64,000 nucleotides of DNA from Strigamia acuminata (lineage: Eukaryota): NCBI GenBank assembly GCA_949358305.1, contig OX442314.1, positions 14,136,001 to 14,200,000 on the forward strand, given 5' to 3'. The position numbers were made by a program, and so were the translations under genes. Under the pieces are notes generated by a model. It was not told where the DNA came from, ran no database searches, and saw only the letters and a program-made list of their open reading frames with translations. Below are positions 35,324 to 53,336 of the stretch, piece by piece. The stretch's first letter is position 1, and each line of letters opens with the position of its first letter.

Positions 35324-36620
35324 ATTATTCACAACAAATTAAATCCTGATTGAATTTTTTAATTTAGCAAATGTAAGATTATTCTAATATTTAATATATT
35401 GATTTTTAATAAGTTTTTAATCCGTGATTGGAATTAAGTTTGAGTTTTTAATGTTAATTTTTTTAGAAATGGATAAGTCTAGTGAACTTTTTGTTGCGAG
35501 ACTTGCAGTTTCTGCCTGTTTATTGCCTGTAGATACAGTGAAGCAGAGGAATTTTGAGTTCTAGTACAAAATGTTGAATCACGCCGCTTCAGCAGTCTAA
35601 AAAGAAGTTGCTAAATGATGGAATCTACCAATTCTTGATCCCAACTTATCTAATTTGTCTGCTAGAAAAAACAAATTTTGGGGATAGCAAATCCAACTCT
35701 CTACCTCCTCGTGGTTATCTCTGGTGAAAACAAAATGAGAGCAATGGTACTTTAAAATGATTTAATAATAAAATGGTGAATTGAAATAATTACAACACAT
35801 GGTGCTCGTCATTCGTAATTTGCAAAGATGTGTATTTTTGCAAATTGATTTAAAAGAAGAGAAAAATAAGTAAAATTGAATTTAGAATGTACTTAAAACA
35901 TTCCTATGAAGCATAAAAACAAAGATTTCACATCGTTGAATGATCAACTCGTTGAACTTGTTCGGTGTGTATTTTTCTGGGACGTACAACGGTGTTTTTC
36001 CGGTTCGTTTAGCCGGCGATCAAACAATCGATTACGATTTTTCTTTGGTTGGGATTCGCACTCACGGTTCATTCAACTCGTACACTTCGTTCGGGAATGT
36101 ACGGTCGATTCGCAGTGTCATCGTCGTCGTTTCCTTCAACTGCATGCGTGCTGTGACGCGGGTGCAACGGTGATCATGCCGGGAATTTACGGACGATTCG
36201 CAATGAGTCTTCGTCGTCTTCGTCTTCGTCTTCGTCGCTGCTGTGGCAGGATTTTAAAATTTTAACTATTTTCATCAGTTTTCATTTTTAAATTAAGAAA
36301 TCAGTGTGCTTTTTTCTTTCTTTTCATAACTGTTCCATTCTGTGAAAAGAAATGGAATTTTCAAGGAGAAATCCAATGGTGTTCTAATTAACTGTACTCG
36401 ACCACCACTAGAGGCGCAACACTATTTCTTGACATTTTATGACGTTTCGTGACGTCAGCTACATGCCACCAACATCAAAGGAACCGCGCAACGTTGCCCT
36501 ACTGTCTCTTCTCTATACTGTGTTCTATACGAGTGCGTCAATATGACGTCACGTTTCAGATGTATACTACAAACCCGCCGCCCGAACCCGAACTCAGCAC
36601 TATCTTACTTTCTCGACACG

Positions 36621-39600
36621 ATGGAGGGTGGATACAGCATGGAAAAGTTGCAGTCGATTTCAGCTATTATTTTCGACCTTGATAATACTTTAATAGACAC
36701 TCGCGGAGCCGATAGAAAAGCTGTAGATAAGGTAGTTAGCTAATTTGTATGGTTATCTTGTTTTATTTCTAGGCGGAACCGTTAAGTGCGTGCTCTCTCT
36801 ATCGCGCACTCACTTCCTCCTATAGTCGCCCAACTCGAACTGAAACTAGGTCTTGACCTCCATATTTTTTGTCAAAGACATTTATTTATTGTGAATTGTA
36901 TAAGAAAAATGGAAAATAATAATGCCGAACTGTGTGGAGCGTGTATCGCTGCTTTACAATGCGCCAAATCGGACACTGAGAAATTCGCGTCGCTTTTATT
37001 AGTCACGAAACTGGTGAAATCTCAAGATTGCGATGGCGAAAGCCGGAGAAAGATATTTGATGCAATCGGGTTTGTTTTCGTCAACCGATTGCTCAACACC
37101 ACCGACGTGCCGGACGGTTGCCCCGTCTATATTTATAAAGCGATTGGCTTAACTTTATTTTCGTGTTTCTGTACGGAACCCGATTTAATTTCGCACGACG
37201 AAATGCGCTCGAAAGTGTCCGATTTGACGCAACTAATTCTAACTTGCGGTGAGAGCAACGATGAGCAAGTGATGATCAATGACGCAATGATTTGTCTGTC
37301 AAGTGTTGTCAAAATGCACGTTAATGACGTAACGATTTGTAAAGAATTGATTCCGAATTTGGTTGAGATTGTTGTCAATGAGATGTACGGGTGTGAAAAA
37401 TGTATCGATTTGATTGGTCGTTTAATTCAAAACATGGGTAGTGCAGTCTGGGACGAGTGTGTCGATTCGTTCGACGTTTTGATGAGTTTTTATGCCGCAA
37501 AATTTGTAAACGAGAACGGTGAAGTGAAGTTTGTATTGTGTCAAAAAATGGCCGGTTACGTGTTGAGTTGCCCGTACAGAAACGTTAGTGACAAAACGTG
37601 GTCCCGAGACATCCAGCAAGGACTCAGTGACATTTTATTCAGCAAAGTTTCGTTGCCGCAAATGGATCCCGCATTGAAGCTCATCTCGGTTATGATGGAG
37701 AAATTCGGCATTCGCTGGGCGTTGAGCGACAACAACAAGTTCTTCCTCATCTTCGCGCACTTGACGTGCATCGAAGTACGCATGATAGTCGAAGACCGAT
37801 GCCTGGAACAAGTGATTGAAGACCGCTCGCTCCTCGTCGCGTGTTTCATCTCCTTGGAAAACATACTCGCCTTCCTCGTCAATAACGATCACGAAATCGA
37901 TTGCAATCAAAGACAACAACTTTATTCGGCGCTCAACTCGGCCATGAACGGCGTACTGCATTTTCTCACTTGCGAATCGAGGAAAATCGACAATGTGGAC
38001 AATTTAGCGACGATTAAAAAACAAGTGATTTTCTCTTGCGTCAGAGTGATCGGCGCGTGGCTGGCAGAGGAGGTATCCGCTTTAAGAGACGATGTTTATG
38101 CAATTTTGCCCTTCCTACTCCAAGTTGCAGCTCACTCATCAGCCAAAATAACGACTAGTCACGACAAACACGTGGAGAATGACGCTTTCGACATTTTTAG
38201 ATTTCTACTGCCAGGAATGTGTCATCTGACGGCGGAGGACGAACCGAGAAAACTGTTGATCGCGCTCAAATTCCACGAGACTTTACACAACTACATGCTC
38301 AACACGTGGAAGTTATTCACGTCGTCTAAAGGCGACGAAAAAATAAATATGTATAAGGATTGTTTGGTTACGACGTGCGGGATTTTCATGAACGTAATCG
38401 TGTTGGACGCGAGTTTGGTGGCGAGTGATAAAATGTTTCACAAATTGCTACGTTTTGTGTTCGGCGCGCTGCCGGAGCTGGAAAACAAGCCGCGGCATTT
38501 GATTCTGATTGGCAATTTGTCGGTGATCGGACTGCTGCTGTTGCGCCATTACGCGAGCAAAGTGAAGTCGTGCGAAAGCTCCATCTACATGTACCTGTCG
38601 AGCAGCATCAAATTCTTGTGGGATGCGCACAACATCGAGGATTCGAGGGACTATAACAGCATTGTCATCTCGCAGCAATACAGACGCGTTTGGAACCAGG
38701 TTATGGAACTTTGGTTTTTGGGAATGCAAGCGCTGGCCACGCTGCTGAAGGAGTTGCCGTGGATCGGACAGTTTGTTTTGGAGAGCGGCTGGATTAGTGT
38801 GATTTTACAGACTTTGAGGAAAATCGAGGCTGGCGCCATCGATGCGAGTACTAAGAGTGCGTACGAGCATTTTCTGTGTTGTTTGGTACCGACGCAAAAG
38901 TGTATTCAGCAGATTATTGTCAAAGAGGGGGGTATTGAGGTGTGCACTACCCATCAGATGAAAGAATTGGAGTGTTTATTACGGAATTAAGTGATATTTA
39001 TTGTTTATGTTGTTGTTTTGTTGTTTATTTATTATACGATTACGATTGTTAATTTTTCTATTTTTTATGCATCAGATTTTTATTGTGTAAATGAATTAAT
39101 GAAGTTTTTTTTCTTTTTTTTTTGTAAAATTTGTAAAGGTGTGATGAGGAAAAAGTAAAAAGGAAGTAGGAAGAAATTTGAATGAATTTATTTTCATAGT
39201 CATTGATATTTTCCCCCGTTATACAATTTGTTTAATGATTGATATAATACTAATATTGTAGATTTTTAAAAAAAAATGGTTGGAGAAGTGAAAACCGTGG
39301 ACAAGGTTTGAGTTTTTTTGCTTTTTTTTAAAAAAAAAATTTAAATTTAATAGATTTCTTTATTATTTATTTATATATGTATTTTTTTTGTAGATATTTT
39401 TGAAGCGAATTTGTATTTGTATTTGTAAAATATTGTATTACTCTCATGTGTTGAACACTAATGCCATATTTCCAGATTCAACGTTATTTGTGTGACCAGG
39501 GAGTCGCCGAATCTTGTGCATCAGAGACTGTTGAGGAATATCTTAAATGTTTTCGGGCAAATCCGCAAAATCCTAATCCAAATCGGCCCGATTTAGACCC

Positions 39601-40201
39601 ATGGCGTAGACTACTATGGGCCTACGCTCTGGGTCCGGAATGGGACTATCTTTTGGAGAAGGTCTATCCTATATGGAAGAAGACCCGATTCGAGAATCTT
39701 CTGTTTTCCGATAAAATCAAAAGCATGCTCAAGACACTGCATAGGAAATACAAACTGGTCCTCATTACGAACGGCCCGAGCAAAGCGCAGTGGGAGAAGA
39801 TCCAGAAATTGAATGCTCGCGATTATTTCGATCTGGTGTTGGTGAGTGGCGACCACGAAGTCGAGAAACCCGATCCGGCTATTTTTCAAATGGCTTTTGA
39901 AGCGTTGAACATCACGGCTGAAGAATGCATCATGGTAGGCGACACGCTTTCGACGGATATTCAAGGTGGGTTTAATGCCGGTGTTGCGGCGACTGTGTGG
40001 ATTCCCATTCAGGATAGCGAGAGACCGAAGCCTAGGCCAGATTACAAGATCGAGAAGGTTCTTCATTTGCCCGCGCTGCTTTCGTCCACTTGTACGGCAG
40101 ATGCGGCTCGATTGACGTCCATTGTGGCGGTCAAACCGGATGTCCTAGCAAGAAAAGCGTCGATCGATGGGAGAAGATTTTCAAACACTAACTCTAGCTG
40201 A
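36621..40201 (+). CDS. NANP: N-acylneuraminate-9-phosphatase (HAD family), 2 exons (36621-36731, 39476-40201), ~278 aa
   Basis: Exon 1 has HAD motif I AIIFDLDNTLIDTRGA. A phase-0 GT..CAG intron follows. Exon 2 has LITNGPSKAQWEKI, EKPDPAIF, MVGDTLSTDIQGG. Confidence 0.9.
36909..38990 (+). CDS. NCDN: Neurochondrin homologue, copy 2 (intronless), nested in NANP intron 1 on the same strand
   Basis: Colinear paralogue of 29287-31332 with the same motifs. ATG at 36909 aligns with the copy 1 start. Confidence 0.9.
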   Translation: MENNNAELCGACIAALQCAKSDTEKFASLLLVTKLVKSQDCDGESRRKIFDAIGFVFVNRLLNTTDVPDGCPVYIYKAIGLTLFSCFCTEPDLISHDEMRSKVSDLTQLILTCGESNDEQVMINDAMICLSSVVKMHVNDVTICKELIPNLVEIVVNEMYGCEKCIDLIGRLIQNMGSAVWDECVDSFDVLMSFYAAKFVNENGEVKFVLCQKMAGYVLSCPYRNVSDKTWSRDIQQGLSDILFSKVSLPQMDPALKLISVMMEKFGIRWALSDNNKFFLIFAHLTCIEVRMIVEDRCLEQVIEDRSLLVACFISLENILAFLVNNDHEIDCNQRQQLYSALNSAMNGVLHFLTCESRKIDNVDNLATIKKQVIFSCVRVIGAWLAEEVSALRDDVYAILPFLLQVAAHSSAKITTSHDKHVENDAFDIFRFLLPGMCHLTAEDEPRKLLIALKFHETLHNYMLNTWKLFTSSKGDEKINMYKDCLVTTCGIFMNVIVLDASLVASDKMFHKLLRFVFGALPELENKPRHLILIGNLSVIGLLLLRHYASKVKSCESSIYMYLSSSIKFLWDAHNIEDSRDYNSIVISQQYRRVWNQVMELWFLGMQALATLLKELPWIGQFVLESGWISVILQTLRKIEAGAIDASTKSAYEHFLCCLVPTQKCIQQIIVKEGGIEVCTTHQMKELECLLRN

Positions 40202-41286
40202 TTTTTGCTGCTTTTTTAGTTCGTTTTGATTAGTTTTTGTTTTTTTTGTTTTTTTTTCCGTTCGGTTTTGGCTCGTTTGTTTGGTTTGCTTAAAATAGAC
40301 AAAAAACTGGTAGTAGTTGGCAGTTGTAGATTTTTACTAATTTTAGACTATTTTGTTGGTTGTTTTGGTTAAAGTTGATTATTTTTCTGATTGTTTTGTG
40401 AAAATCAAGTAGATTTAATGGGATTTGGGCTTTGGTTCTTGCGAAATGTGATTACAAAATGTTGTGCCTTTGCTTTTTCATATGGGAAATAATCAATGTA
40501 TACTAATTGAATTTGAGATTGTGGATTTTTTTTGGGGAGGTTTTTATGTTTTTTTTTTCCTCTTTTTTCTTCCAACTGGATATTACCAGTTGAGGTAGCA
40601 TTTTCCGATAGCCATGCTATCATTAATTCAGTTATATAAAGTGATCTACTCGATCATGTAATATATTTTTGAAACACTAAGTGATCCTTTAACAAGTGCA
40701 GTGATAAACAGTGGAAATTGTTTGGCAATTTGTAACTGTATACAGTTTTGTACTGAAATTTATATATTTTACCTACGAAGCTGTAAAAAAAGTCATGTGA
40801 ATCATAATTTATGACATTTTCTTGTTTTTTTGTTTATTTGTACAGTAATTTATTTATTTCTTTTGTTGACTTTTTTCTTGGGTTGGACAGTGTCATAGTT
40901 ATGACGTAATGCACTTCTTTGAGTATTTTTTTTTTGGATATGTTCTATTTTTGTAGCTAAAATTACTTTGGTTGGGGTTTGGTGTAGTCCTGAATTAATG
41001 ACCTATTTTTTGTTTCCTTAAATTTATAGGTTGTGTATATATATTGTACATTCAAATAAGACATTTTTTGTAGTTTTAATAGTGATTTCTGTATAAAAAA
41101 AATAATAACAATAATAATAATTATTTTTTTTTACATTCTGATTTTTCTTTCCTTGAAAATTAATACACTCGAACTCAGGGGAAGCGCGATTGTTTGAAAT
41201 GTTCCAATGTTTTAAAAATGAATGTGAAGCAATAAAAAATTGCCTATTTTTGTCCCTTATCGTAGTAAATTCATTTACAACTTCGC

Positions 41287-42966
41287 TTATAATCTCGAAT
41301 AGTAGGACTTTGGTACAACGAGATCAGCTGTGATGTCCTTCGCAGACCGGCATCCTAGAAACGGAGATTTATGCAATAAAATGTAATTTAAAACGAATAA
41401 TTTTACCTGACAACAACATGCTCCGTTCCAGCTCGGTTTTAAGCAGCAACAGAACATCCTCTATCCCTTCTTGGCCCTTGAAAAATATTTATTTTTAGTC
41501 ATTCCAATAATTTACACGTTAAATTTCTTGTAAAAGCCACATTTTCTTTTTTCTGCTACAGTAGTTTATTACGTACTTTGCACGCTAGACCCCAAATAAC
41601 GGGTCTTCCAACGAAAACAATACGAGCACCAAGTGCAAGGGCTTTGAAAACATCTGTTCCTGTTCTGACGCCGCCATCTAAATACACTTCGCATCTATTT
41701 CCAACGGCTTTTACTATTTCTGGAAGGACTTCTATCTAAAAAATTTATTTATCTCAAGACTCGAAGTGTATCGGAGCAAATTATGGAAAATATTGTTCCG
41801 GTTTGTGCTGATTTTTTTGTGGTTATAATTTTGTAATTGTACAAATTATTAAATTTTTTTTAAATTTTGAATTGGGTGTTCCGGTTAGCGAAATTTCCCA
41901 TTTCGTGCCCTGATAACTCAAGATTGCGTAATTTATTTTAAGAATTATTTAACAAACCGAAGCTGGTACTCCGTCCAATTGTCTGCCGCCGTGGTTCGAC
42001 ACAATAATTCCATTAACTCCGTGATTAAGAGCCAGAAGTGCATCTTCAGCTGTGAGAAAAGTTTGTTATGAAAATGTCGATTGAGAGGCGATAAATAATT
42101 AAAAATTCAAATCAATCACCCGTAAGAATTCCCTTAACAATCACTGGAAGTGATGTTATACTTTTCACCCAGGTTATGTCACTCCAAGTGATAATCGTCA
42201 CGTAATTACTGATCCCAGAACCGTGGGGATCACTGTTAAAGTTTGCAAATTTTAAATGCGGAGGTAAAAGAAAATTATATTTTATTTCTCCTCTTCTTTT
42301 CCCAAATACGGGAGTATCGGCAGTAATGACGATGGCTTTAAACCCATTTTTCTCAGCTCTTTGAATGATTTCTTCGGTTATTTTTCGATCTTTATAAATG
42401 TATAACTGGAACCAACGAAAGGAGTTATTTCCTGGTACTGTACTTGCAATTTCTTCGATACTTGTTGTAGCTATGGTACTTAGAATCATCAGCGTACCCA
42501 ATTTGGCTGCAGCTGTTAAATTTTGGATTATTTTTTTATTTTTTGTGTTCTTAAAGGGTCGGATTGATTTATTTTTAATACCACGTGCCGTAGCCTTTTC
42601 GCCATCAGGGTGCGCCAAGCATTGCATCGCCGTTGGAGCGATTCCAATCGGAAAATTTATCGCTTGTCCTTGAACTGTAGTTTCTAAGTTACATCCAGAA
42701 ACATTTCTAAGCATACGTGGTCGGAGGTAGAGTCTGCGAGGAAAATCAATTATTATTATTAAAATATTTATTTTTTACGTATCATGATTTATGTGATCAC
42801 AAAGATGATTGATTAGATAATTATTATTTTTGTTGATATACCTTTTAAAAGCTTCCACATTTTCTTTCAAAGTAATTTCTTCATCCGCTCCATTTCGATA
42901 GTATTCGTACACGGATTTTGGTAAGCGAGTTTGGGCGAATGATTCAAATTCATCGATGGAAATCAT
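41287..42966 (-). CDS. HAO1: Peroxisomal 2-hydroxyacid oxidase (glycolate oxidase family), ~7 exons
   Basis: [91 protein letters not shown]. Ends YYSRL* (PTS1). Confidence 0.92.
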
Positions 42967-43372
42967 GGCTTTCTATTAGTACAATAGTTGTAAATACATT
43001 GCAGCGTATAAATGACCCTCCTGAAATGAGCTCGGTGTAATCGTCGTCCTTGGACGGTTTATCCCGGTTTTAACTTGCGAAGTGTTTTATACTAAAATAA
43101 TTTAATGTAAAATTACAGCGCTTTGTAAATTAAAATAGAAATATCCCAAAATACGTTAAAAATACAAAAAAATCTTTTATTTAAAGAAACAAAAACAACC
43201 AACTTTAATTAGTATCTGTCGCCAATAGATGGAAGCAGTGTCTTTAAAATTTTTATTAACTAAAAAAATACTAATAATAATTGTGATAGGTTAAAAATTC
43301 ATTTCGAACGGAAAAATATATATATTTTAGAAAAAATAAAAACTTCACAAAATTTTTCTTTCAAAATTCCAC

Positions 43373-44840
43373 TCAAGACTTTCTATACAACTGATAGATG
43401 GCGCCAGTGGAATCGTCCGAAATCAACAAACTGCCGTCGAGCATAACCGCTGTGTCAACGGGTCTTCCCCATCGTATTTTTTTATCCGGATCCATTATCC
43501 ATCCCGATACGAGCTCATACGCATCTCCCGGTCTATCCTTCACCCAAGGATAAAACATCACTTTATGACCACTATACGACTGGCGGTTCCAACTGCCATG
43601 CAGTGCCACGACCGCGCCGTTCTTGAAGTACCCAGGCACATTGTCACCACTCCAAAAGGTAAGTCCCAATGGAGCACTATGTGGTTCCAATCCTTTATCC
43701 ACTTTACGAAAAGTGTCGCATTTAACCACACTTTCGTTCGGGTTGTTGTCAACATCCGCAACATACTCCAAGTCGTTCATGGAATCCGAAACTACGGGGT
43801 TGCAGTAGGGCCAACCATAATTAACTCCTTCGACAATCCGACAGAACTCTTCGGGTGGATTATTGTCGACATAGTCGGGAACGACTTTGCCGTAATTACC
43901 AGAATAGTCGTTGTACGGATATTTGATGTCGTCGCGTTGATTGACCACGACCCACAAGTCGTCAGTTCCAGGCACAAACGCCAAACCTTCAGCATTGCGA
44001 ACACCTTCACAAACGAGTCTTTTGTCACCTCCAGTTAAAGGATACCCGTATATAGCGCCTCGTTTTGGATCCTCGCGTAAATCGTGCGGATCTGCATTCG
44101 TTGCACTACCGATCGACACGTACAATGTGTTGTTGCCAATTGCAATGTTCTTCAGTGGATGTCGAAAGCCATTAAATGTCGGAAGATTATTCGCAATTAC
44201 CTTGAAATCAAACATTATTTTCAATTTTGTATATTTTTATAATAGTTTTGCAATAAAATGACTTTACCTGAGGTGAGGCGATCTTTGTGTCTCCATCTTC
44301 GTACCGATATCTTGCAACTCGAGTCGCTTCCGACACATAAATGTATTTATCTCCATTTAGCTCCGTGTGCAACACCATATCGTGCGGTTTGTCCAGTCCA
44401 GTAGCAAAAGTCAAGCGTAGGGCTTGTTTATCGGTCGAAACCGGCGGTTTGAGAAGACTGATGGTTTTGCTTTTGGGCTGTGACACGAGCACGTCGCCAT
44501 TAGGCAGGGCGAGCAAGAAGCGAGCATTGGGAGCACGACCGTACACTCTTATACCGAATCCTTTGGGAACAAGAAGATTGCGACCTTCTGTAAATGGTTG
44601 TATGGAGTGTAGGCTAGCAGGTACTTCTAAATCCATCCATTCTAAAGGTGGTAAACTCTTTTGATCGGATGAAACATCTTTCGTTTGCGAGTAAATCACT
44701 GCCAGGATGATAGCTACGGTCACTACAACAACTGCCATGGTAAGAATTATGACGTAGAAAACCAGATTACGTCGACCGGAAAGCGAGTGATAACCTCCGA
44801 AGGTTCGGCTTCCAGTGCCATCGGTGCTTGTACGTGGCAT
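43373..44840 (-). CDS. PQQ-dependent sugar/L-sorbosone dehydrogenase-family beta-propeller, copy A; N-terminal membrane anchor; exons 44840-44268 and 44200-43373 (~466 aa)
   Basis: ARFLLALPNGDVLVSQP, PHDM, LYVSIGS.TN, GVRNAEGLAF, NQRD, PPEEF, NYGWPYC, HSAPLGLTF, ALHGSWNR..SGHKV, WGRPVD..DGSLLISDD..GAIY. One 67-nt phase-0 GT-AG intron. Confidence 0.88.
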
Positions 44841-45400
44841 TTCTGCTAAAGCGAAAAATTATGTAAATTGCTTGTTTGTACAATATGCGTTTGTTGTGAA
44901 ATGCAATAAGGAAACGGACGGAATTGTGATTTTCTGGATCAAGTGATGTAATAGTATCAATAATGATGTGTCAATATGTCGATAATAATCTATGCCCTTG
45001 AAAAAAATATTTTTTTTGGTGTTTTTGTGTTTAATATTTGTTTTGTTACGAGGTAATTAGATTGATTTGATGTGAGAGATAAAAATATATGATTAAAAAT
45101 TATTTACTGATGTTATCGCTGGCGATTCCTTCTTCTCATAACCTGAATTTAAGAAGTAAGTTCATGTGCAGTCATTAATTATGGAAGACTAGAGTTTCAA
45201 GGTGAAGTTTCCGCACGCATGCGTTCTTGGAATTTGTTTTTGCTTGGGATATGTATAATAAATTATACATAAATATATACCTTTGGAAATTATTTTTTCA
45301 GTTTTGTGTTTCCAAGTTTTTTAATTTTTTTTAAAAAATCACACAGGAAATAAATTTTTATTTTATTTTTATTTTATTTTTATTTCTGGCAATTCTATTA

Positions 45401-46769
45401 CTATTTCGTAGCTTTTTGATACAATTGATAGATGGCGCCAGTAAAATCATCAGAAATTAAAATGCTCCCATCTTGTAAAACTGCCGTATCAACCGGTCTC
45501 CCCCAACGTATTTTCTTAACCGGATCATCCACCCATCCCGACACAAGGTCGTAAAAATCACCCGGTTTACCATTAACCCACGGATAAAAGACCACTTTAT
45601 GACCACTATACGAACGACGATTCCAACTGCCATGCAGGGCAACGAGCGCTCCATTCCGGAAGTACTCGGGCACATTGTGGCCTGTCCAAAAGGTGAGTCC
45701 TAAAGGAGCGCTGTGGGGTTCCAATCCCTTTTCCGCCAGTCGAAAACTCGAACATGCAACGACGCTTTCGTTGGGATTGTTATCAAAATCATCGACGTAT
45801 TGCAACTCGTCCATCCACTCGGTCAAAGCATAAGGGTTGCAGTAAGGCCAAGCGTAGTTTTGTCCTTCTTCCACCTTTCCGAATTCCTCGACTGGATTAT
45901 CGTCCACATACGGTGCAATCACTTGACCGTAATAACGAGAATCGTAGACGTAAGGATACTTGACGTCGTCACGTTGATTATTTACCATCCATAACTCGTC
46001 AGTGCCCGGTGCAAATGCCAGACCTTCTGCATTGCGAATGCCCTCTGACACGAGTCGCCTTTCGCCGCCTATTAGGTTGTAACCGTAAATAGCGCCTCGT
46101 TTTGGATCCTCTTTTAAATCCTGTGGGTCAGCATTGGTGGAACTGGCTATAGACACGTACAACGTATCGTTTCCTATCGCAATGTTCTTTAAATCGTGCT
46201 GGTAATTAACATCAGATGGGAGATTATCTATTAGAATCTATTCGAAATAAAATAAAAATTTAAATTAAAAGAAAATAAAGAATGGACAATATTACTTCCG
46301 GTGAACCGATGCTGAAGTTCCTGTTGGTGTCAGTGTAACGAAATCTCACAATTCTATTAGTTTCGGCTACGTAAATATAGTCATCATCATTTTCGTCCTT
46401 GAAAAATATCATGTCATGTGGGAGGTTAAGATTGGTGGCAAATTTCAAAATGGTTGCTGTTTGGGCTGGTGAAGTGGGAGGCTGTAGAAGACTAATGGAT
46501 GACAGTTGTGGTTGAGACACTAGGACATCACCGTTGGGTAAGACGAGCAGAAAGCGCGCGTTGGGAACAACTGCGTATACTCTGATCCCATATCCCGTAG
46601 GAACGAACAGCTGACGAGGTCTCGTAAATGGATATGTGATGTTCAGGACGACGGGTACTTCTAAATCCACTTTTTCTAACTCCGGTAGAGCAGGATAGTC
46701 GGTTGAAACTTGGGTTGGATAAATGACTGTCGCTGCTACGATTGTCATTAGAAAAATCACTCGTTCCAT
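45401..46769 (-). CDS. PQQ-dependent sugar/sorbosone dehydrogenase-family protein, copy B; signal peptide; exons 46769-46296 and 46237-45401 (~436 aa)
   Basis: Same motifs as copy A. 58-nt phase-0 intron at the homologous position (SPE|ILIDNLP). Confidence 0.88.
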
Positions 46770-48110
46770 GTTGACTATCTGACACATAACAGACGTGATA
46801 GATTAAGTTGGGTTGTAGTTGTAGTGAAAAGCGAAGCGCTTGTACTGCCATCTGATATTTTTGGGTCTGAACTATGATGGAATTAATTCCTGTGAAGAGC
46901 AGCTGTTAAGTTTCATCCGAAAAAAAAAAAGAAAATAAATAGAAAAATAGATAAGGAATATGGGGATGAATACTAAACAATGTCGTCGTGCCGTCGTAAT
47001 TTATTTTCGTAACTTTGAGTGATTGGCTTTACCGTGATATTGTTAAAAATAAAAATCTCCAAAAATGTGTAGAAATTTAGTTTACCCAGATTAAAATTAC
47101 CGACAACAATGTTCTTTCACACTCGTTGTGAGATTACCAATTAGAGCCTAACATAAAATGAATTTGGATAATTTAAATATCTAGGCTCTAGGGTATTAAA
47201 AGAAGAAAATATTATCAATATTTTGCTCCAATGAACCGATGGTGGAGTTCACTTGCACGTAAATATAATTATTACTAACTTACAATACGATATGTAATTA
47301 AATTGTGACGAGAATAATTAATGACAGGTGCAATGGGTTAAAACAAACATATAATAAGGGGAAGCACGGGAGGCTGCGATTAAGAGCCACGGCTCTTATT
47401 CAAAACTGTCATTTTTGTCAGCAATTACAATTTCGGTTTTTCGTTTGTTATATTTGTTTAATGTAACATACGAAGACTGAACGTCACGAACGAAGCGTAC
47501 GTTCATCATTCGTGAGGTTAAATACAGAAACAATACCGTACTTTTGCAAAAATACGGTATTCTTGATGTCTCAGCCGCGGCTACTATTTGAGGGCGGCTA
47601 CAATTCGAGGGCGACTCTTAATCGGTAACACTGTTTTTGCACCTAAACTAAATTGTTGTATGTTTCATTAAAATTTAGGTTTCAAATTGTGTAAATCATA
47701 TTTTTGAAATAGTAATTGTGATTGATAAAATTCTTGAAGTGGTTGATAAGGAATTTATGCAGTTATTACTAATAACTGCATTCAAATTCATTGGTGGAAA
47801 TCATGTCTTTCTGTTAGTACAATACTTGCAATTATGGCAGCACATAACTGCCCCTCCCTTAAAAAATAAAAACATTCGTATTATTTTAAAACCGTGCGAA
47901 TCGCACTGTGGTAACCATGTTTTTTTTTTTGTTTTTTTTTTTCAAAAACAGCATTCTTCAACTCAAAAACGACATCTTTCATCCTGAAAATGTCACTTGC
48001 ACAGTTTTCAGCTCAATAAATTTTTTTTCAAGTTTTGTGTTTCCAAGTTTTTAAATTTTTTAAAAATTCATAAGGGAAATAAAACTATTTCTTGAATGGC
48101 AATTTTGTTA

Positions 48111-49473
48111 CTATTTTGTAGCTTTTTGATACAATTGATAGATGGCGCCAGTAAAATCATCAGAAATTAAAATGCTTCCATCTTGTAAAACTGCCGTATC
48201 AACCGGTCTCCCCCAACGAATTTTCTTAACCGGATCATCCACCCATCCCGACACAAGATCGTAAAAATCACCCGGTTTACCATTAACCCACGGATAAAAG
48301 ACCACTTTATGACCACTATACGAGCGACGATTCCAACTGCCATGCAGGGCAACGAGCGCTCCATTCCGGAAGTACTCGGGCACATTGTGACCTGTCCAAA
48401 AGGTGAGTCCTAAAGGAGCGCCGTGGGGTTCCATTCCCTTTTCCGCCAGTCGAAAACTCGAACATGCAACGACGCTTTCGTTGGGATTGTTATCAAAATC
48501 ATCTACGTATTGCAACTCGTCCATCGACTCGGTCAAAGCATAAGGGTTGCAGTAAGGCCAAGCGTAGTTTTTTCCTTCTTCCACTTTTCCGAATTCCTCG
48601 ACTGGATTATCGTCCACATACGGAGCAATCACTTGACCGTAATAATGAGAGTCGTCGACGTAAGGATACTTGACGTCGTCACGTTGATTAATTACCATCC
48701 ACAACTCGTCAGTGCCCGGTGCAAATGCCAGACCTTCTGCATTGCGAATGCCCTCTGACACGAGTCTCCTGTTGCCGCCTATTAAATTATAACCGTAAAT
48801 AGCGCCTCGTTTTGGATCCTTTTTTAAATCCTGCGGATCAGCATTGGTAGAACTGCCAATAGACACGTACAATGTATTGTTTCCTATGGCAATGTTTTTT
48901 AAATCGTGGCCATTTCCATCCGATGGAAGATTATCAATTAGAACCTGATTCGAAATTAAATTTAAAAAAATAAAAAATAATAAACTGAATGGACAATATT
49001 ACTTCCGGTGAACCGATGCTGAAGTTCCTGTCCGTGTAAGTGTAACGAAATCTCACAATTCGATCAGTCTCGGCCACGTAAATATAGTCATCATCATTTT
49101 CGTCCTTGAAAAAGATCATGTCGTGTGGTTGCTTAAGATTAGTGGCAAATTTCAATATGGTCGCTGGTTGGGCCGAGGAAATGGGAGTCTGCAGAAGACT
49201 GATGGATGATAGTTGTGGCTGAGACACTAGGACATCACCGTTGGGTAGGGCGAGCAGAAAGCGCGCGTTGGGAACAAGTGCGTATACTCTGATCCCATAT
49301 CCCGTGGGAACGAACAGCTGTCGAGATTTTGTAAATGTGGTGTTCACTTTCAGGACGACGGGTACTTCTAAATCCACTTTTTCTAAGTCTGGTAGAGCAG
49401 CATTGTCGGATAAAACTTGGGTTGGACAAATGACTGCTGCCACGATTGTTATTAGAAAAATAACTCTTTCCAT
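48111..49473 (-). CDS. PQQ-dependent sugar/sorbosone dehydrogenase-family protein, copy C; signal peptide; exons 49473-49003 and 48944-48111 (~434 aa)
   Basis: Recent duplicate of copy B including flanks. 58-nt phase-0 intron (SPE|VLIDNLP). Confidence 0.88.
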
Positions 49474-50194
49474 GGTGACGATCTGACATACAACAGACTT
49501 GATAGATTAAGTTGGGCTGTAATTATAGTGAAAAGTGTAGCGCTTGTACTGCCATCTGATATTTTTGGGTCAGAACTATGATAAAATTAACTCCTGTGAA
49601 GAGCAGCTGTTAGTTTTATTTGAAAAACAAAATAAAACAAATAGAAAGAGTATTGGGATGAACGATGAATATTAAACAAAGTCGACGTGCTCTCGGAAGT
49701 TATTGTAATTTTGAGTGATTGGTTTTATTAATATTGTGACGTCGAATTTAATGTTAAAAATGAATACATACTCTAACTTATATCCAAAAATATACATTAA
49801 TTTTGTTTCTACAGATTAAAATTTGTGGAATTGGCAATGGAAAACGTATTATTTTCCGACAACAATGTTCTTTCACACTCGTTGGAAGATTACCATTAGA
49901 TTCTAACAATAAAATGAATGTAGGTAATTTAAATACCCATTAAAAGAAGATTACTTTATCAATATTCTGTTCCGGTGAACCGATGGTGGAGTTTCCATGC
50001 GTGTAAGCATAATGATATCACGAGTCTGTTGATTTAAGCTGTGTAGATTAAATATAATTATTACTAAGTTGTGTAATTGGTAGCAATTGCTATCAATAAT
50101 TTGAAATATTTTGAATTTTAAGATTCAAAGTATTTGTTGATTTAAAGACAGCAATTGCCGTATTCATGTTATTAAATGTTGCATTGGTATACAT

Positions 50195-50531: not shown

Positions 50532-51152
50532 GTATACATCATTAAAATTCATGATTCAAATTGTTGTGTAATCTTATTTTTGAAATAGCAATTGACAGAA
50601 ATCTTGAAGTGGTAGATAAGGAATTGATGCAATTATTAGTTTGATTGTTCCAAGCAAAATGCTTGGCCAGATTGCTGCATGTTTTAGTAATGTTTTTAAT
50701 TGTTATATTTTGTAGTGAATGGTTTGATAAACAAAATGCTTTGTTACATTACAGCAATGTTTTGAATGAATGATTTCATCTATTCTGATCGATTTTTTCT
50801 CCCACTAATCAGCAAACCAAGACACATTTGCACACAATAAGATTTTTGGCATCTGGGCATAACACACCCATAACACACAAAAAAGTTTGAATGTTATAAA
50901 ACGAAAAACAAATCTAAATGCAAAATTTAAATGCAAAATTTAATCTCAACGTCAGTTTGTGGCATCAACTGTGCTACACTGAATAAAGTCACCCAAACAC
51001 GAAGGTTAGACAATCCCGCACCTTGTAATAAATAAATACGAAAGCAAAATACCAAAAAAAAAAAGAAAAAAAAATGTAACAATATTTCGTATACAAAAAC
51101 ATTAGGAATCCATATTTGTACGTAGTAAATTTTCAAGAATCAATCGGCAATT

Positions 51153-53336
51153 TCAATTCTCATAACCCAATCCTATTTTCTGGTTTAGGTATTCATTACA
51201 TCGGACACACTTCAACAGCAAGTCGGCTAAATCATACTTTGAAATCAGCCGCCCAGGACTACTACCAACGTTCACTTGGTACACCCCCTTACCAGGATCA
51301 TCTAATTTAAAAAAAAATGTCAAAATTAAAACAGATCACAACAAATGCTTCGCAAAAAAAATTACTCAATATATGCGGAGGACAAACAGCGGTCCAATCG
51401 AGGCCACAACTCTCGAGCACTTCCGCTTGACGTTTATGATCGGCAGTGATTTCAAAGTATACCTGAGGAATTTTACTTGGCTCGTAAAATAGAAATGCTA
51501 AATTCAAACACAAACATCTATTATTTAATGTAATAAAAATAAAATACATTTATTTACCTGAAATGCAAACGGAAATTCTTTTTACGCCGCATTCTTGCAT
51601 CGCATTTATTATATTGCTCGTTCCCTTCGACAACACAGTCGTAGGTCCTGCAAAAAATCATTTTAACTTAAAACTAGCCACCATTTTGTCATTTTGAGCA
51701 AGTTTTTGAATTTACAAAACATCCAGAGGCAGAAAAACTCAGATTTTGTTGACAAAATCACTAAATTACCTAAATCTGTTCTCGTTCCCAACGTTACAAT
51801 AACGCCATCTTTCCCCTCAACGGCGCGCTTCACGTCGTCTTCATTGACAACGTCTCCGAGAATTACATGCACTTTTCCCTTAAATTCTTCCGGAATGGTT
51901 TTCTCGTTCCTCACAAAAATCGTCACATCAAGATCTAAAACGAAAAAAAATTTACAAAAATTAAAACTAAATAAAACAAACATCAAAAACGAGTAAATGA
52001 CAAATAACATCAAAAATTACAAATTAAAGCCTTTATTTCTTTTATTGACCACACCGGATCAAGTATACAATCTTTTCCCAGCTACATTACTCGCAACCAC
52101 TCATTCCCCACGATAATGCGGCGTTCTTTTCTCCTTAAACGCTTGCAACCCTTCAATCCTGTCCTTAGTTGGCAACACTTGCGCATAACAAATCGTTTCA
52201 ATCATTTTACCGGTCGAAATATCAACATCAACGCCCCTATTAATAGCTAGCTTAGCCATTCTCAATGCTACCGGTCCATTGCTTACAATTTCTTCAGCAA
52301 TTGCTAATGCTTTTTGATACGCCGCATCTCCGTCGTTATTTTGCTGCACCACATGATTGACCAGTCCGATTTTCTGCGCCTCCTCGCCATCGACGGTTCG
52401 ACCGGTAAATATCAACTCTTTCGCAAGTGGTGGGCTGATAATACGAGGCAAGTGCTGGGTGCCACCAGCGCCAGGAATAATGGCCAATTTGGCCTCAACT
52501 AATCCCATTTTGACAGTTTTAGCTGAGACGCGCATGTCACAAGCAAGTGCCATTTCAAAGCCACCGCCCAGCGCGTAGCCGTCGAGAGCCGCAATTGTGG
52601 GAAAAGGAAGATTGTAGATTTCGTTCATCATGTTCTGTAGTTGCGATACGAAATGGGAAACTTCGTCCGGGGCCATCCCGATACGTTCCTTCAAGTCGGC
52701 GCCGGCGCAGAACATTCCCGGCGTCAGGCTTCGTAGCAGGCAAACTCGCACGTTTTTCTCGAATTGTAAAGTGTTCAAATGTTCGCGGAATATTTTGACG
52801 AAGTTTTTTCCCAATGAATTTTTCGCCACTGGACGATTCATGGCAATCACGGCGATGCCCGTGTGTTTGTCCGACAAGTATTGCAATTTTACTTCGTCCT
52901 GGGCCTCATTGGTCGCGTTGTTACGTCTTGGTGGAGCCAGACATTGCTTTAGGACGTTTGATTTTGAAATTCCTTGACTTCTTAAGCGGATTACGGAAAA
53001 CATGTCTATAAAAAAGTTGAATGACACGGAGAAATACCGTGAAAATTGTAACGCGCGATGTAAATGGATAATCAAAAAATGGCCTGTTGCGCACTCTCGT
53101 GGCCGCTTGTAGAATTAGAAATAGCAACACGTAGACCGCATGCATTACTAATAGAACGTCTTGTCTGTTTTGCATTCAAACTTTCTTAACATTAATTTCG
53201 GTCACAATTCCGGAAAAGTTGCGGAGTTTGACGAAATTAAAATTAATTTACCATTCTGGAGTGCAAGTTCCGTCACAGCTATGCCAGTATTGCCAGTTGC
53301 TCCAAATATTGCAATTTTCTTGACGCATCCTGCCAT
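51153..53336 (-). CDS. BLVRB: Flavin reductase (NADPH)/biliverdin reductase B, 5 exons
   Basis: Exon 1 (53336-53252) MAGCVKKIAIFGATGNTG. Exon 2 from 51934 DVTIFVRN..GDVVN..VIVTLGTRTDLG. Later exons PTTVLSKGT, AFLFYEPSKIP..ITADH, WTAVCPPHI, ISKYDLAD..GYEN*. Confidence 0.9.
52101..53003 (-). CDS. AUH: Methylglutaconyl-CoA hydratase (crotonase family), intronless, nested in BLVRB intron 1 on the same strand
   Basis: Arg/Ser-rich mitochondrial-type N-terminus; FCAGADLKER, PTIAALDGYALGGGFEMALACD, AIIPGAGGTQ, PTKDRIEGL.AFKEKR.P.Y.GE*. Confidence 0.88.
   Translation of the reverse strand: MFSVIRLRSQGISKSNVLKQCLAPPRRNNATNEAQDEVKLQYLSDKHTGIAVIAMNRPVAKNSLGKNFVKIFREHLNTLQFEKNVRVCLLRSLTPGMFCAGADLKERIGMAPDEVSHFVSQLQNMMNEIYNLPFPTIAALDGYALGGGFEMALACDMRVSAKTVKMGLVEAKLAIIPGAGGTQHLPRIISPPLAKELIFTGRTVDGEEAQKIGLVNHVVQQNNDGDAAYQKALAIAEEIVSNGPVALRMAKLAINRGVDVDISTGKMIETICYAQVLPTKDRIEGLQAFKEKRTPHYRGE

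What the first reader, a model, noticed from the sequence alone, without database searches (positions are those of the whole stretch)
43373..49473. Tandem trio of bacterial-type PQQ-dependent dehydrogenase genes apparently domesticated in an animal genome
Seen: three intact paralogues with the full motif series of the sorbosone/soluble glucose dehydrogenase beta-propeller family (G.RNAEGLAF, NQRD, Y(G/A)WPYC, HSAPLGLTF, LHGSWNR, WGRPVD, ISDD..GAIY). They lie between ordinary animal genes (HAO, BLVRB), and each has one short phase-0 GT-AG intron at the same codon. Knowledge: this family is bacterial, with fungal AA12 pyranose dehydrogenases as the recognised eukaryotic relatives. It is not part of the standard animal gene set, and animals lack the PQQ biosynthetic pathway. 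Inference: one horizontal transfer, then intron gain, then two duplications. The products would be extracellular quinoproteins that scavenge PQQ from diet or microbes, or have switched function. The shared intron and the flanking genes argue against contamination.
Basis: partly seen in the sequence, partly recalled or inferred. Interest (0 to 1): 0.88.

Follow-up and report, generated by a model that had tools for sequence, protein, structure and literature searches.

The report
Bacteria-derived PQQ sugar dehydrogenases in centipede
Three intact, intron-bearing copies of a gene of bacterial type sit among ordinary animal genes in what is likely a soil centipede genome; they are predicted to encode exported sugar-oxidising enzymes that would need the bacterial cofactor PQQ, and this transfer into centipedes was already reported in 2022.

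Summary
There are three intact minus-strand genes (466, 436, 434 aa), each with one phase-0 GT-AG intron at the same aligned codon, between an FMN-dependent oxidase gene and a BLVRB-like gene. The host is likely a centipede near Strigamia maritima (neurochondrin 87% identical). Contamination is unlikely: one public contig spans the neighbouring host gene and gene 1 at host depth, and another contig's numbers fit a spliced gene 1 transcript.

The transfer is not new. So et al. 2022 (PMC9151784) report PQQ-type 'GDH' genes moved from bacteria into centipedes and label them with WP_189008864.1 and WP_146884959.1. These are the two best named bacterial hits here and the sister group in my trees.

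Added here: the fold and pocket are AA12-like rather than sGDH-like. All three copies keep 10 of 10 PQQ/Ca positions, while two UniRef relatives keep 6 and 5. Gene 1 looks membrane-anchored and genes 2 and 3 secreted. My searches found no test of activity, so whether an animal uses PQQ catalytically stays open and testable.

The parts
43373..44200 (-). g1 exon 2 (275 codons + stop); holds nine of the ten PQQ/Ca positions
   Evidence: AlphaFold model pLDDT 94, best PDB matches fungal AA12
44201..44267 (-). g1 intron, 67 nt, GT..AAG, phase 0
   Evidence: run X4 record 28 (1116 nt) fits only if about 67 nt are skipped here (my arithmetic on tables 3 and 8)
44268..44840 (-). g1 exon 1: short N-terminal tail, strongly hydrophobic segment from residue 31 (likely type II membrane anchor), first propeller blades with the Arg273 equivalent
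   Evidence: Kyte-Doolittle 19-residue mean 3.22
45401..46237 (-). g2 exon 2
46238..46295 (-). g2 intron, 58 nt, GT..TAG, phase 0
46296..46769 (-). g2 exon 1 with an N-terminal hydrophobic stretch (likely signal peptide; no signal-peptide predictor was available)
47377..47628 (.). high-copy repeat of about 250 nt between g2 and g3 (likely a non-autonomous DNA transposon)
   Evidence: depth 64,000-660,000 in the bin and loose ends at 47377 and 47628 in runs X1-X3; internal palindrome 47524-47569
47780..47857 (-). decayed copy of the 5' end of the neighbouring FMN oxidase (HAO-like) gene, 82% identical over 80 nt; lies at the junction of the g2/g3 duplication
   Evidence: self-BLASTN
48111..48944 (-). 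g3 exon 2
48945..49002 (-). g3 intron, 58 nt, GT..CAG, phase 0
   Evidence: not checked against reads
49003..49473 (-). g3 exon 1 with an N-terminal hydrophobic stretch (likely signal peptide)
45287..50016 (.). recent tandem duplication: 45287-47272 matches 48018-50016 at 85% over 2051 columns, upstream non-coding DNA included
41287..42966 (-). flanking host gene, multi-exon FMN-dependent oxidase (HAO-like); ends read by eye
51152..53336 (-). flanking host gene, multi-exon NAD(P)H-binding protein (BLVRB-like); ends read by eye

Best explanation
These are three host-encoded, intron-bearing copies of a six-bladed beta-propeller dehydrogenase gene, likely acquired once from a Deinococcus-related bacterium by an ancestral centipede and predicted to work as exported PQQ/Ca2+-dependent sugar dehydrogenases. 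Shown: gene structure, tandem duplication, purifying selection, nesting among bacterial sequences, and retention of every PQQ- and calcium-contact position of the fungal AA12 structure. Inferred: g1 is a type II membrane ectoenzyme and g2/g3 are secreted. The apoproteins would pick up PQQ from prey, soil or gut bacteria, because the animal is not known to make it (recalled; not testable without a genome). The His363 equivalent would act as base and a hydride would pass from C1 of a monosaccharide to PQQ, giving a lactone, as proposed for sGDH and AA12. These proteins have no cytochrome domain, so reduced PQQ would be re-oxidised by an outside acceptor or O2. The likeliest role is redox or antimicrobial chemistry in the gut lumen or gland secretions; the substrate is open and need not be glucose.
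For: Same family as the published centipede HGT: the supplement labels WP_189008864.1 and WP_146884959.1 are P0006 and P0005, the best named bacterial hits (59%). With a distant outgroup, the 12-row clade holding g1-g3 (SH-aLRT 97) is sister to that Deinococcus pair (98) inside the bacterial rows; an unrooted careful tree gives the 12-row clade 100/95. AlphaFold models of g1 exon 2 and of the full-length relative P0001 (pLDDT 94) match TrAA12 and CcPDH first (TM 0.70-0.73), ahead of sGDH/Asd (0.51-0.60). Positions R273, H363, R430, N431, D451, H539, H560, W563, N564 and R621 of CcPDH (PMC6881789 passages), mapped through the profile alignment to 6JT5, are kept 10 of 10 in g1, g2 and g3. dN/dS 0.13-0.22. 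Contig X1/3 spans 41773-45337 at depth 75 against 76-88 for neighbouring host contigs. In Thereuonema, GDH1 mRNA is highest in midgut and GDH3 in venom gland, leg and hindgut (PMC9151784 source data).
Against: No activity or PQQ binding was tested here, and my literature searches found no test for a centipede protein. Identity to the solved AA12 enzymes is only 18-22%, so substrate cannot be transferred. TrAA12 itself shows only weak activity, on L-fucose or D-arabinose (PMC6881810 abstract). A bacterial domain pair annotated as a PQQ sorbosone dehydrogenase neither bound PQQ nor oxidised glucose (PMC10916295 passage; relationship to this subfamily not checked). Two UniRef relatives that group with g1 have lost 4 and 5 of the 10 positions, so function does switch in this lineage. 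The trees hold no fungal AA12 row, and the outgroup and six in-clade rows are unnamed. Signal peptides rest on hydropathy only.
Confidence: 0.68

Rival explanations
1. Same origin, but the proteins act as PQQ- or sugar-binding proteins rather than turning-over enzymes, for example sequestering PQQ from gut bacteria or taking it up.
For: No electron-acceptor domain in any copy. Relatives P0008 and P0315 have lost catalytic or cofactor positions yet stay full length. PQQ supply in an animal is uncertain.
Against: The catalytic His and the Arg/Asn pair at the quinone oxygens are kept in all three copies and in most in-clade relatives; pure binding would not obviously need them. Single-domain TrAA12 is active, though weakly.
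Confidence: 0.17
2. The proteins use a different quinone or none and have a gland or venom role unrelated to PQQ.
For: GDH3 is highest in the venom gland of Thereuonema. A similarly annotated bacterial protein failed to bind PQQ.
Against: Retention of the two arginines and two histidines that hold the three PQQ carboxylates is hard to explain without PQQ. Which Thereuonema gene is the orthologue of g1-g3 is unknown.
Confidence: 0.11
3. Bacterial contamination or misassembly.
For: Best named hits are bacterial. No single listed contig spans the whole locus, and g3 is only partly covered. Run X1 might be related to the sample the window came from.
Against: Spliceosomal introns at the same site in all three copies; AT-rich intergenic DNA with host repeats; a decayed piece of the neighbouring host gene inside the array. 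Holders of one organism code in three studies. One contig joins host exons to g1. Related genes in named public data for the lineage.
Confidence: 0.02

Closest known systems
Centipede horizontally transferred 'GDH' (PQQ-sugar-dehydrogenase-like) genes, So et al. 2022, PMC9151784 (read: abstract, section 10, passages, supplement contents page, primer rows, Supp Fig 30 source data; the microsynteny sheets Data 8-9 were cut and a 3-page PDF was unreadable)
   Same: Same two Deinococcus reference proteins; same lineage; the paper also proposes PQQ use and reports expression in gut, venom gland and leg.
   Different: The paper counts two transfers. Here the two Deinococcus proteins are sisters (78% identical, 100/100) outside one clade that holds all candidate animal rows, which fits one transfer (I could not see the paper's gene lists). 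It likens the enzymes to glucose-oxidising sGDH; the pocket is AA12-type. Whether it describes this locus or this trio is unknown.
Fungal AA12 pyranose dehydrogenases CcPDH (6JT5/6JWF) and TrAA12 (6H7T) (PMC6881789 and PMC6881810, passages read)
   Same: Top structural matches; all ten CcPDH PQQ/Ca positions, including the HGSWN loop and the N-terminal Arg.
   Different: Only 18-22% identical; no AA8 cytochrome or CBM1; close full-length relatives score below the Pfam TrAA12 cut-off (14.8-22.3 bits against 30.9); nearest relatives are bacterial at 50-59%.
Uncharacterised bacterial 'PQQ-dependent sugar / glucose-arabinose / sorbosone dehydrogenase' subfamily (Deinococcus cellulosilyticus, D. 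roseus, Nostoc, Pontibacter, Verrucomicrobia)
   Same: Direct homologues over the full length, same motifs.
   Different: The window genes have an intron and N-glycosylation sequons (2, 4, 4), and g1 has a membrane anchor. The only assayed bacterial homologue I found cited is the 2-keto-D-glucose dehydrogenase of Pseudomonas aureofaciens (seen only as a citation; its sequence was not compared).
Acinetobacter sGDH and Asd/YliI aldose dehydrogenases; animal HHIP
   Same: Same propeller superfamily (Pfam GSDH).
   Different: Lower structural scores (sGDH/Asd TM 0.51-0.60; HHIP 0.32-0.48, 10-14% identity). HHIP shows that animals have the fold natively, but these genes are far closer to bacteria.

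Membership tests
Centipede HGT 'GDH' of So et al. 2022 | Best bacterial hits WP_189008864.1 / WP_146884959.1 | tested here: met
Centipede HGT 'GDH' of So et al. 2022 | Host is a centipede | tested here: met
   Neighbouring neurochondrin is 87% identical to Strigamia maritima T1IIF8 and 49% to Scolopendra; other named animals 27-36%. One gene only.
Centipede HGT 'GDH' of So et al. 2022 | Groups with other centipede copies inside bacteria | tested here: met
   The organism of UniRef T1JJG4, T1IYJ6 and T1INY7 was cut off in the output; S. maritima is inferred from the accession block and recall.
Centipede HGT 'GDH' of So et al. 2022 | Conserved microsynteny with the published loci | not testable with these tools
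   Supplementary Data 8-9 lie beyond the stored part of the file; no animal genomes are searchable
AA12 (CAZy) PQQ pyranose dehydrogenase | AA12-type propeller fold | tested here: met
   Foldseek top four hits are AA12 for the g1 exon 2 model and for P0001; no full-length window protein was folded
AA12 (CAZy) PQQ pyranose dehydrogenase | PQQ-binding, catalytic and Ca-ligand positions of CcPDH | tested here: met
   10 of 10 in g1, g2, g3; Ser449 (main-chain ligand) is Gln here
AA12 (CAZy) PQQ pyranose dehydrogenase | Pfam TrAA12 (PF22807) gathering score | tested here: not met
   0 of 8 full-length relatives and 0 of 2 g1 exons reach 30.9 bits. I therefore call the genes AA12-like, not AA12 members.
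AA12 (CAZy) PQQ pyranose dehydrogenase | PQQ-dependent sugar oxidation | not testable with these tools
   needs an assay
Pfam GSDH (PF07995) / sGDH-Asd | Pfam gathering score of 25 bits | tested here: inconclusive
   single exons score 19-22 bits; 4 of 8 full-length relatives pass
Pfam GSDH (PF07995) / sGDH-Asd | sGDH-type PQQ binding (Lys377, C-terminal Arg408) instead of the AA12 loop | tested here: not met
   the proteins carry the AA12-type HGSWN loop and N-terminal Arg; the sGDH residues themselves were not mapped one by one

The most novel reading that the evidence does not exclude
Centipedes run true quinoprotein enzymes: g1-g3 are catalytically active, PQQ/Ca-dependent sugar dehydrogenases in vivo. 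That would make them animal enzymes with PQQ as cofactor, and PQQ a scavenged vitamin-like factor for this lineage. One ancient transfer then split into a membrane-anchored form, secreted forms and cofactor-dead pseudoenzymes.
Probability: 0.5. Interest if true: 0.78.

Novelty: new member of a known kind. Interest (0 to 1): 0.36.

Why it matters
Whether any animal enzyme uses PQQ as a cofactor is an old open question; PMC6881810 (abstract) says its vitamin role was suggested but never proved, with fungi the shown eukaryotic users. The transfer into centipedes is published, but I found no biochemical test. This locus gives three compact single-intron genes with a complete AA12-type pocket and natural negative controls (relatives that lost the pocket), so the question can be tested directly by expression and assay. 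As a genomic discovery it is a further instance of a known event.

Tried and rejected
No whole genome is held for the window, so the search for pqq biosynthesis genes and further copies could not be run. No RNA holder is listed on record; run X4 is of unknown kind and I treat it as RNA-like only from its exon-only cover and record lengths. The joint row for the g1 intron is not among the 15 of 68 joints shown. Reads were laid on 36500-48900 only, so the g3 intron and the link from g3 to the BLVRB-like gene were not checked. An alternative g2 acceptor (97-nt intron) and an alternative g3 donor (112-nt intron) also keep the frame but delete residues that align with homologues; rejected. The scan of metagenome contigs gave 33 loci, best-segment identity 27-55%, none close to the centipede clade by identity; I did not read them. 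The scan of GTDB genomes with P0005 gave one Verrucomicrobiota locus and not the Deinococcus context; not followed up. Our earlier findings held nothing by sequence or words. The 2026 preprint 10.64898/2026.07.14.738520 (abstract and passages) concerns 8-bladed PQQ proteins, with four arthropod HGT candidates, and has no hit for centipede, Strigamia or AA12. PMC8069557 (passages) is unrelated. My Glu471 column was set on the second Glu of the motif; by eye the first is the equivalent, so I left it out of the count, as I did Asn448 (water-mediated; kept in g1-g3). Tree sets were subsets: 115 of 120 hits plus g1-g3 (five short rows dropped), 36 and 46 hand-picked rows; no AU test was run. The GC3 of g1-g3 (0.44-0.46) lies within the range of three neighbouring ORFs (0.39-0.58), which is uninformative.
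Full report
Observation. Reading the region and testing splice pairs gives three complete minus-strand genes of 466, 436 and 434 codons without internal stops. Each has one short AT-rich phase-0 intron (67, 58, 58 nt) at the same aligned position. g2 and g3 are 91% identical and g1 is 64-65% identical to them. g2 and g3 come from a recent duplication of about 2 kb that includes upstream non-coding DNA (85% over 2051 columns). A decayed 80-nt copy of the neighbouring oxidase gene's 5' end lies at the junction. That suggests (inference) that a larger unit was duplicated and then trimmed. The 3' half of g2/g3 is 97-98% identical against 88% for the 5' half, which may reflect gene conversion. dN/dS is 0.22 for g2/g3 and 0.13-0.18 for pairs with g1.

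Host and contiguity. The neighbours are neurochondrin, a HAD hydrolase, an FMN-dependent oxidase, an NAD(P)H-binding protein and an enoyl-CoA hydratase. Neurochondrin is 87% identical to Strigamia maritima T1IIF8, 49% to Scolopendra viridis and at most 36% to other named animals among 21 hits, so the host is likely a geophilomorph centipede close to, but not, S. maritima. Four public runs of one coded organism in three studies hold the stretch. In run X1 one contig covers 41773-45337, from oxidase exons through all of g1, at depth 75, against 76 and 88 for adjacent host contigs. Run X4 covers coding parts and not the intergenic bins. Its record 28 is 1116 nt long and aligns at 43219-44196; the same depth continues to about 44401. 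That fits 982 + 134 nt with the predicted 67-nt intron removed. This is my arithmetic on the tables: the joint itself is not among the rows shown and the run is not on record as RNA. No listed piece spans the whole array, and the g3 intron was outside the region laid.

Relatives. Exon 2 of g2 finds 4431 proteins among 5111 candidates. Of the 120 listed, the top four are unnamed short-contig proteins (58-63%), followed by Deinococcus cellulosilyticus and D. roseus (59%); every visible organism name is bacterial. Longer relatives (120 of 530 listed) and the 50% library (150 of 3487 listed) add UniRef T1IYJ6 and T1INY7 to T1JJG4. Their organism field was cut off; I take them as S. maritima from the accession block and from recall. 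None is a close orthologue of g1-g3 (T1JJG4 is 48-51% over the full length; T1IYJ6 is 64% over exon 2), so the counterpart of this locus is either unannotated or absent there. The collection does hold diverse animal proteins, so the lack of other named animals in the listed rows counts against a broad vertical family, within the limit of the rows shown. In a careful tree of 39 rows, g1-g3, the three UniRef entries and six unnamed rows form one side of a branch at 100/95. In a quick tree of 49 rows rooted on ten distant unnamed homologues, that clade (97) is sister to the two Deinococcus proteins (98) inside bacterial rows. The six unnamed rows may be other centipedes' transcripts, but that was not shown. 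No fungal AA12 row was available for the trees.

Prior report. So et al. 2022 (PMC9151784; section 10 read whole) report two bacterial-derived GDHs resembling PQQ-sugar dehydrogenases: one in the centipede ancestor and one shared by Lithobius, Rhysida and S. maritima. The supplement's contents page labels them WP_189008864.1 and WP_146884959.1, the accessions of P0006 and P0005. Their source data show GDH1 mainly in midgut (mean 3.1e-3, at most 1.8e-4 elsewhere) and GDH3 highest in venom gland, leg muscle and hindgut of Thereuonema. The microsynteny sheets, which also give intron status, were cut from the stored file, so I cannot say whether this locus is among theirs. Searches for centipede + PQQ (2 papers), Strigamia + HGT + dehydrogenase terms (6 papers) and broader terms (one listed each) showed no biochemical follow-up in the listings; most subscription papers are not in the library. 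Because the two reference proteins are sisters outside a single clade of candidate animal rows, one transfer followed by duplication is the simpler reading of my trees; this is inference without their gene lists.

Fold and pocket. Sequence searches of the PDB rank TrAA12 and CcPDH first (profile E 7e-14 and 3e-9) and sGDH last (4e-5). AlphaFold models of g1 exon 2 and of the full-length relative P0001 (pLDDT 94) match the AA12 structures at TM 0.70-0.73 and sGDH/Asd at 0.51-0.60. Takeda et al. (PMC6881789, passages) name the CcPDH residues that hold PQQ and calcium. Using the profile alignment to 6JT5 (chain index + 239 gives their numbering by my count), g1, g2 and g3 keep 10 of 10, as do T1IYJ6, the four top unnamed rows and both Deinococcus proteins. 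P0317 keeps 9, P0160 8, T1JJG4 6 and T1INY7 5. The last two share an internal hydrophobic anchor with g1 and group with it at moderate support (91/82), so a membrane-bound branch of the family seems to have produced pseudoenzymes while g1 stayed intact. Full-length relatives fall below the Pfam TrAA12 cut-off, so I call the genes AA12-like and not AA12 members.

Mechanism. By analogy with sGDH and AA12 (PMC6881810 passages), Ca2+ and the Arg430 equivalent would polarise the PQQ quinone, the His363 equivalent would take the C1 hydroxyl proton, and a hydride would move to PQQ, yielding a sugar lactone. Hydropathy suggests a type II anchor in g1 and signal peptides in g2 and g3; two cysteines are shared with the Deinococcus proteins and N-glycosylation sequons are present. 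With no cytochrome partner in the chain, reduced PQQ would be re-oxidised by an external acceptor or oxygen. A gut-lumen or gland role in redox or antimicrobial chemistry, fed by scavenged PQQ, is my best guess. All of this paragraph is inference. Against it stand the low identity to assayed enzymes, the weak activity of TrAA12, a bacterial look-alike that did not bind PQQ and the degenerate relatives.

Verdict. Interest rests on the untested chance that these are working PQQ enzymes in an animal.

Noticed in passing
window 52101-52980 within 51934-53250 (minus strand): An intronless enoyl-CoA hydratase (AUH-like) ORF lies on the same strand inside what appears to be the first intron of the BLVRB-like gene, whose first exon (KIAIFGATGNTG motif) is at about 53336-53251. 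Possibly a nested retrocopy.
   Followed up: partly
window 36909-38990 and 39461-40201: Neurochondrin and the HAD hydrolase read as single long ORFs without apparent introns; S. maritima has two adjacent-numbered neurochondrin entries, 87% and 66% identical to this one.
   Followed up: no
proteins P0008 (UniRef T1JJG4) and P0315 (T1INY7): Full-length, membrane-anchored family members that have lost 4 and 5 of 10 PQQ/Ca positions: likely pseudoenzymes derived from the transferred gene.
   Followed up: partly
protein P0159 (UniRef T1IYJ6): Intact catalytic domain behind a long His/Gln- and Ser/Thr-rich N-terminal region; could be a real extension or a gene-model error.
   Followed up: no
window 47377-47628: Very high-copy short repeat with an internal palindrome between g2 and g3, absent from the matching position upstream of g3.
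   Followed up: partly
window 42575-42515: The oxidase ORF reads through a short AT-rich in-frame stretch ([22 protein letters not shown]) that looks like an intron without a stop; splice sites not worked out.
   Followed up: no
run X4 record 31 on window 46294-46729: A contig with 39 differences and a 6-nt gap against g2 exon 1, at five times the depth of a second contig there; probably a g3 allele or a further paralogue.
   Followed up: no
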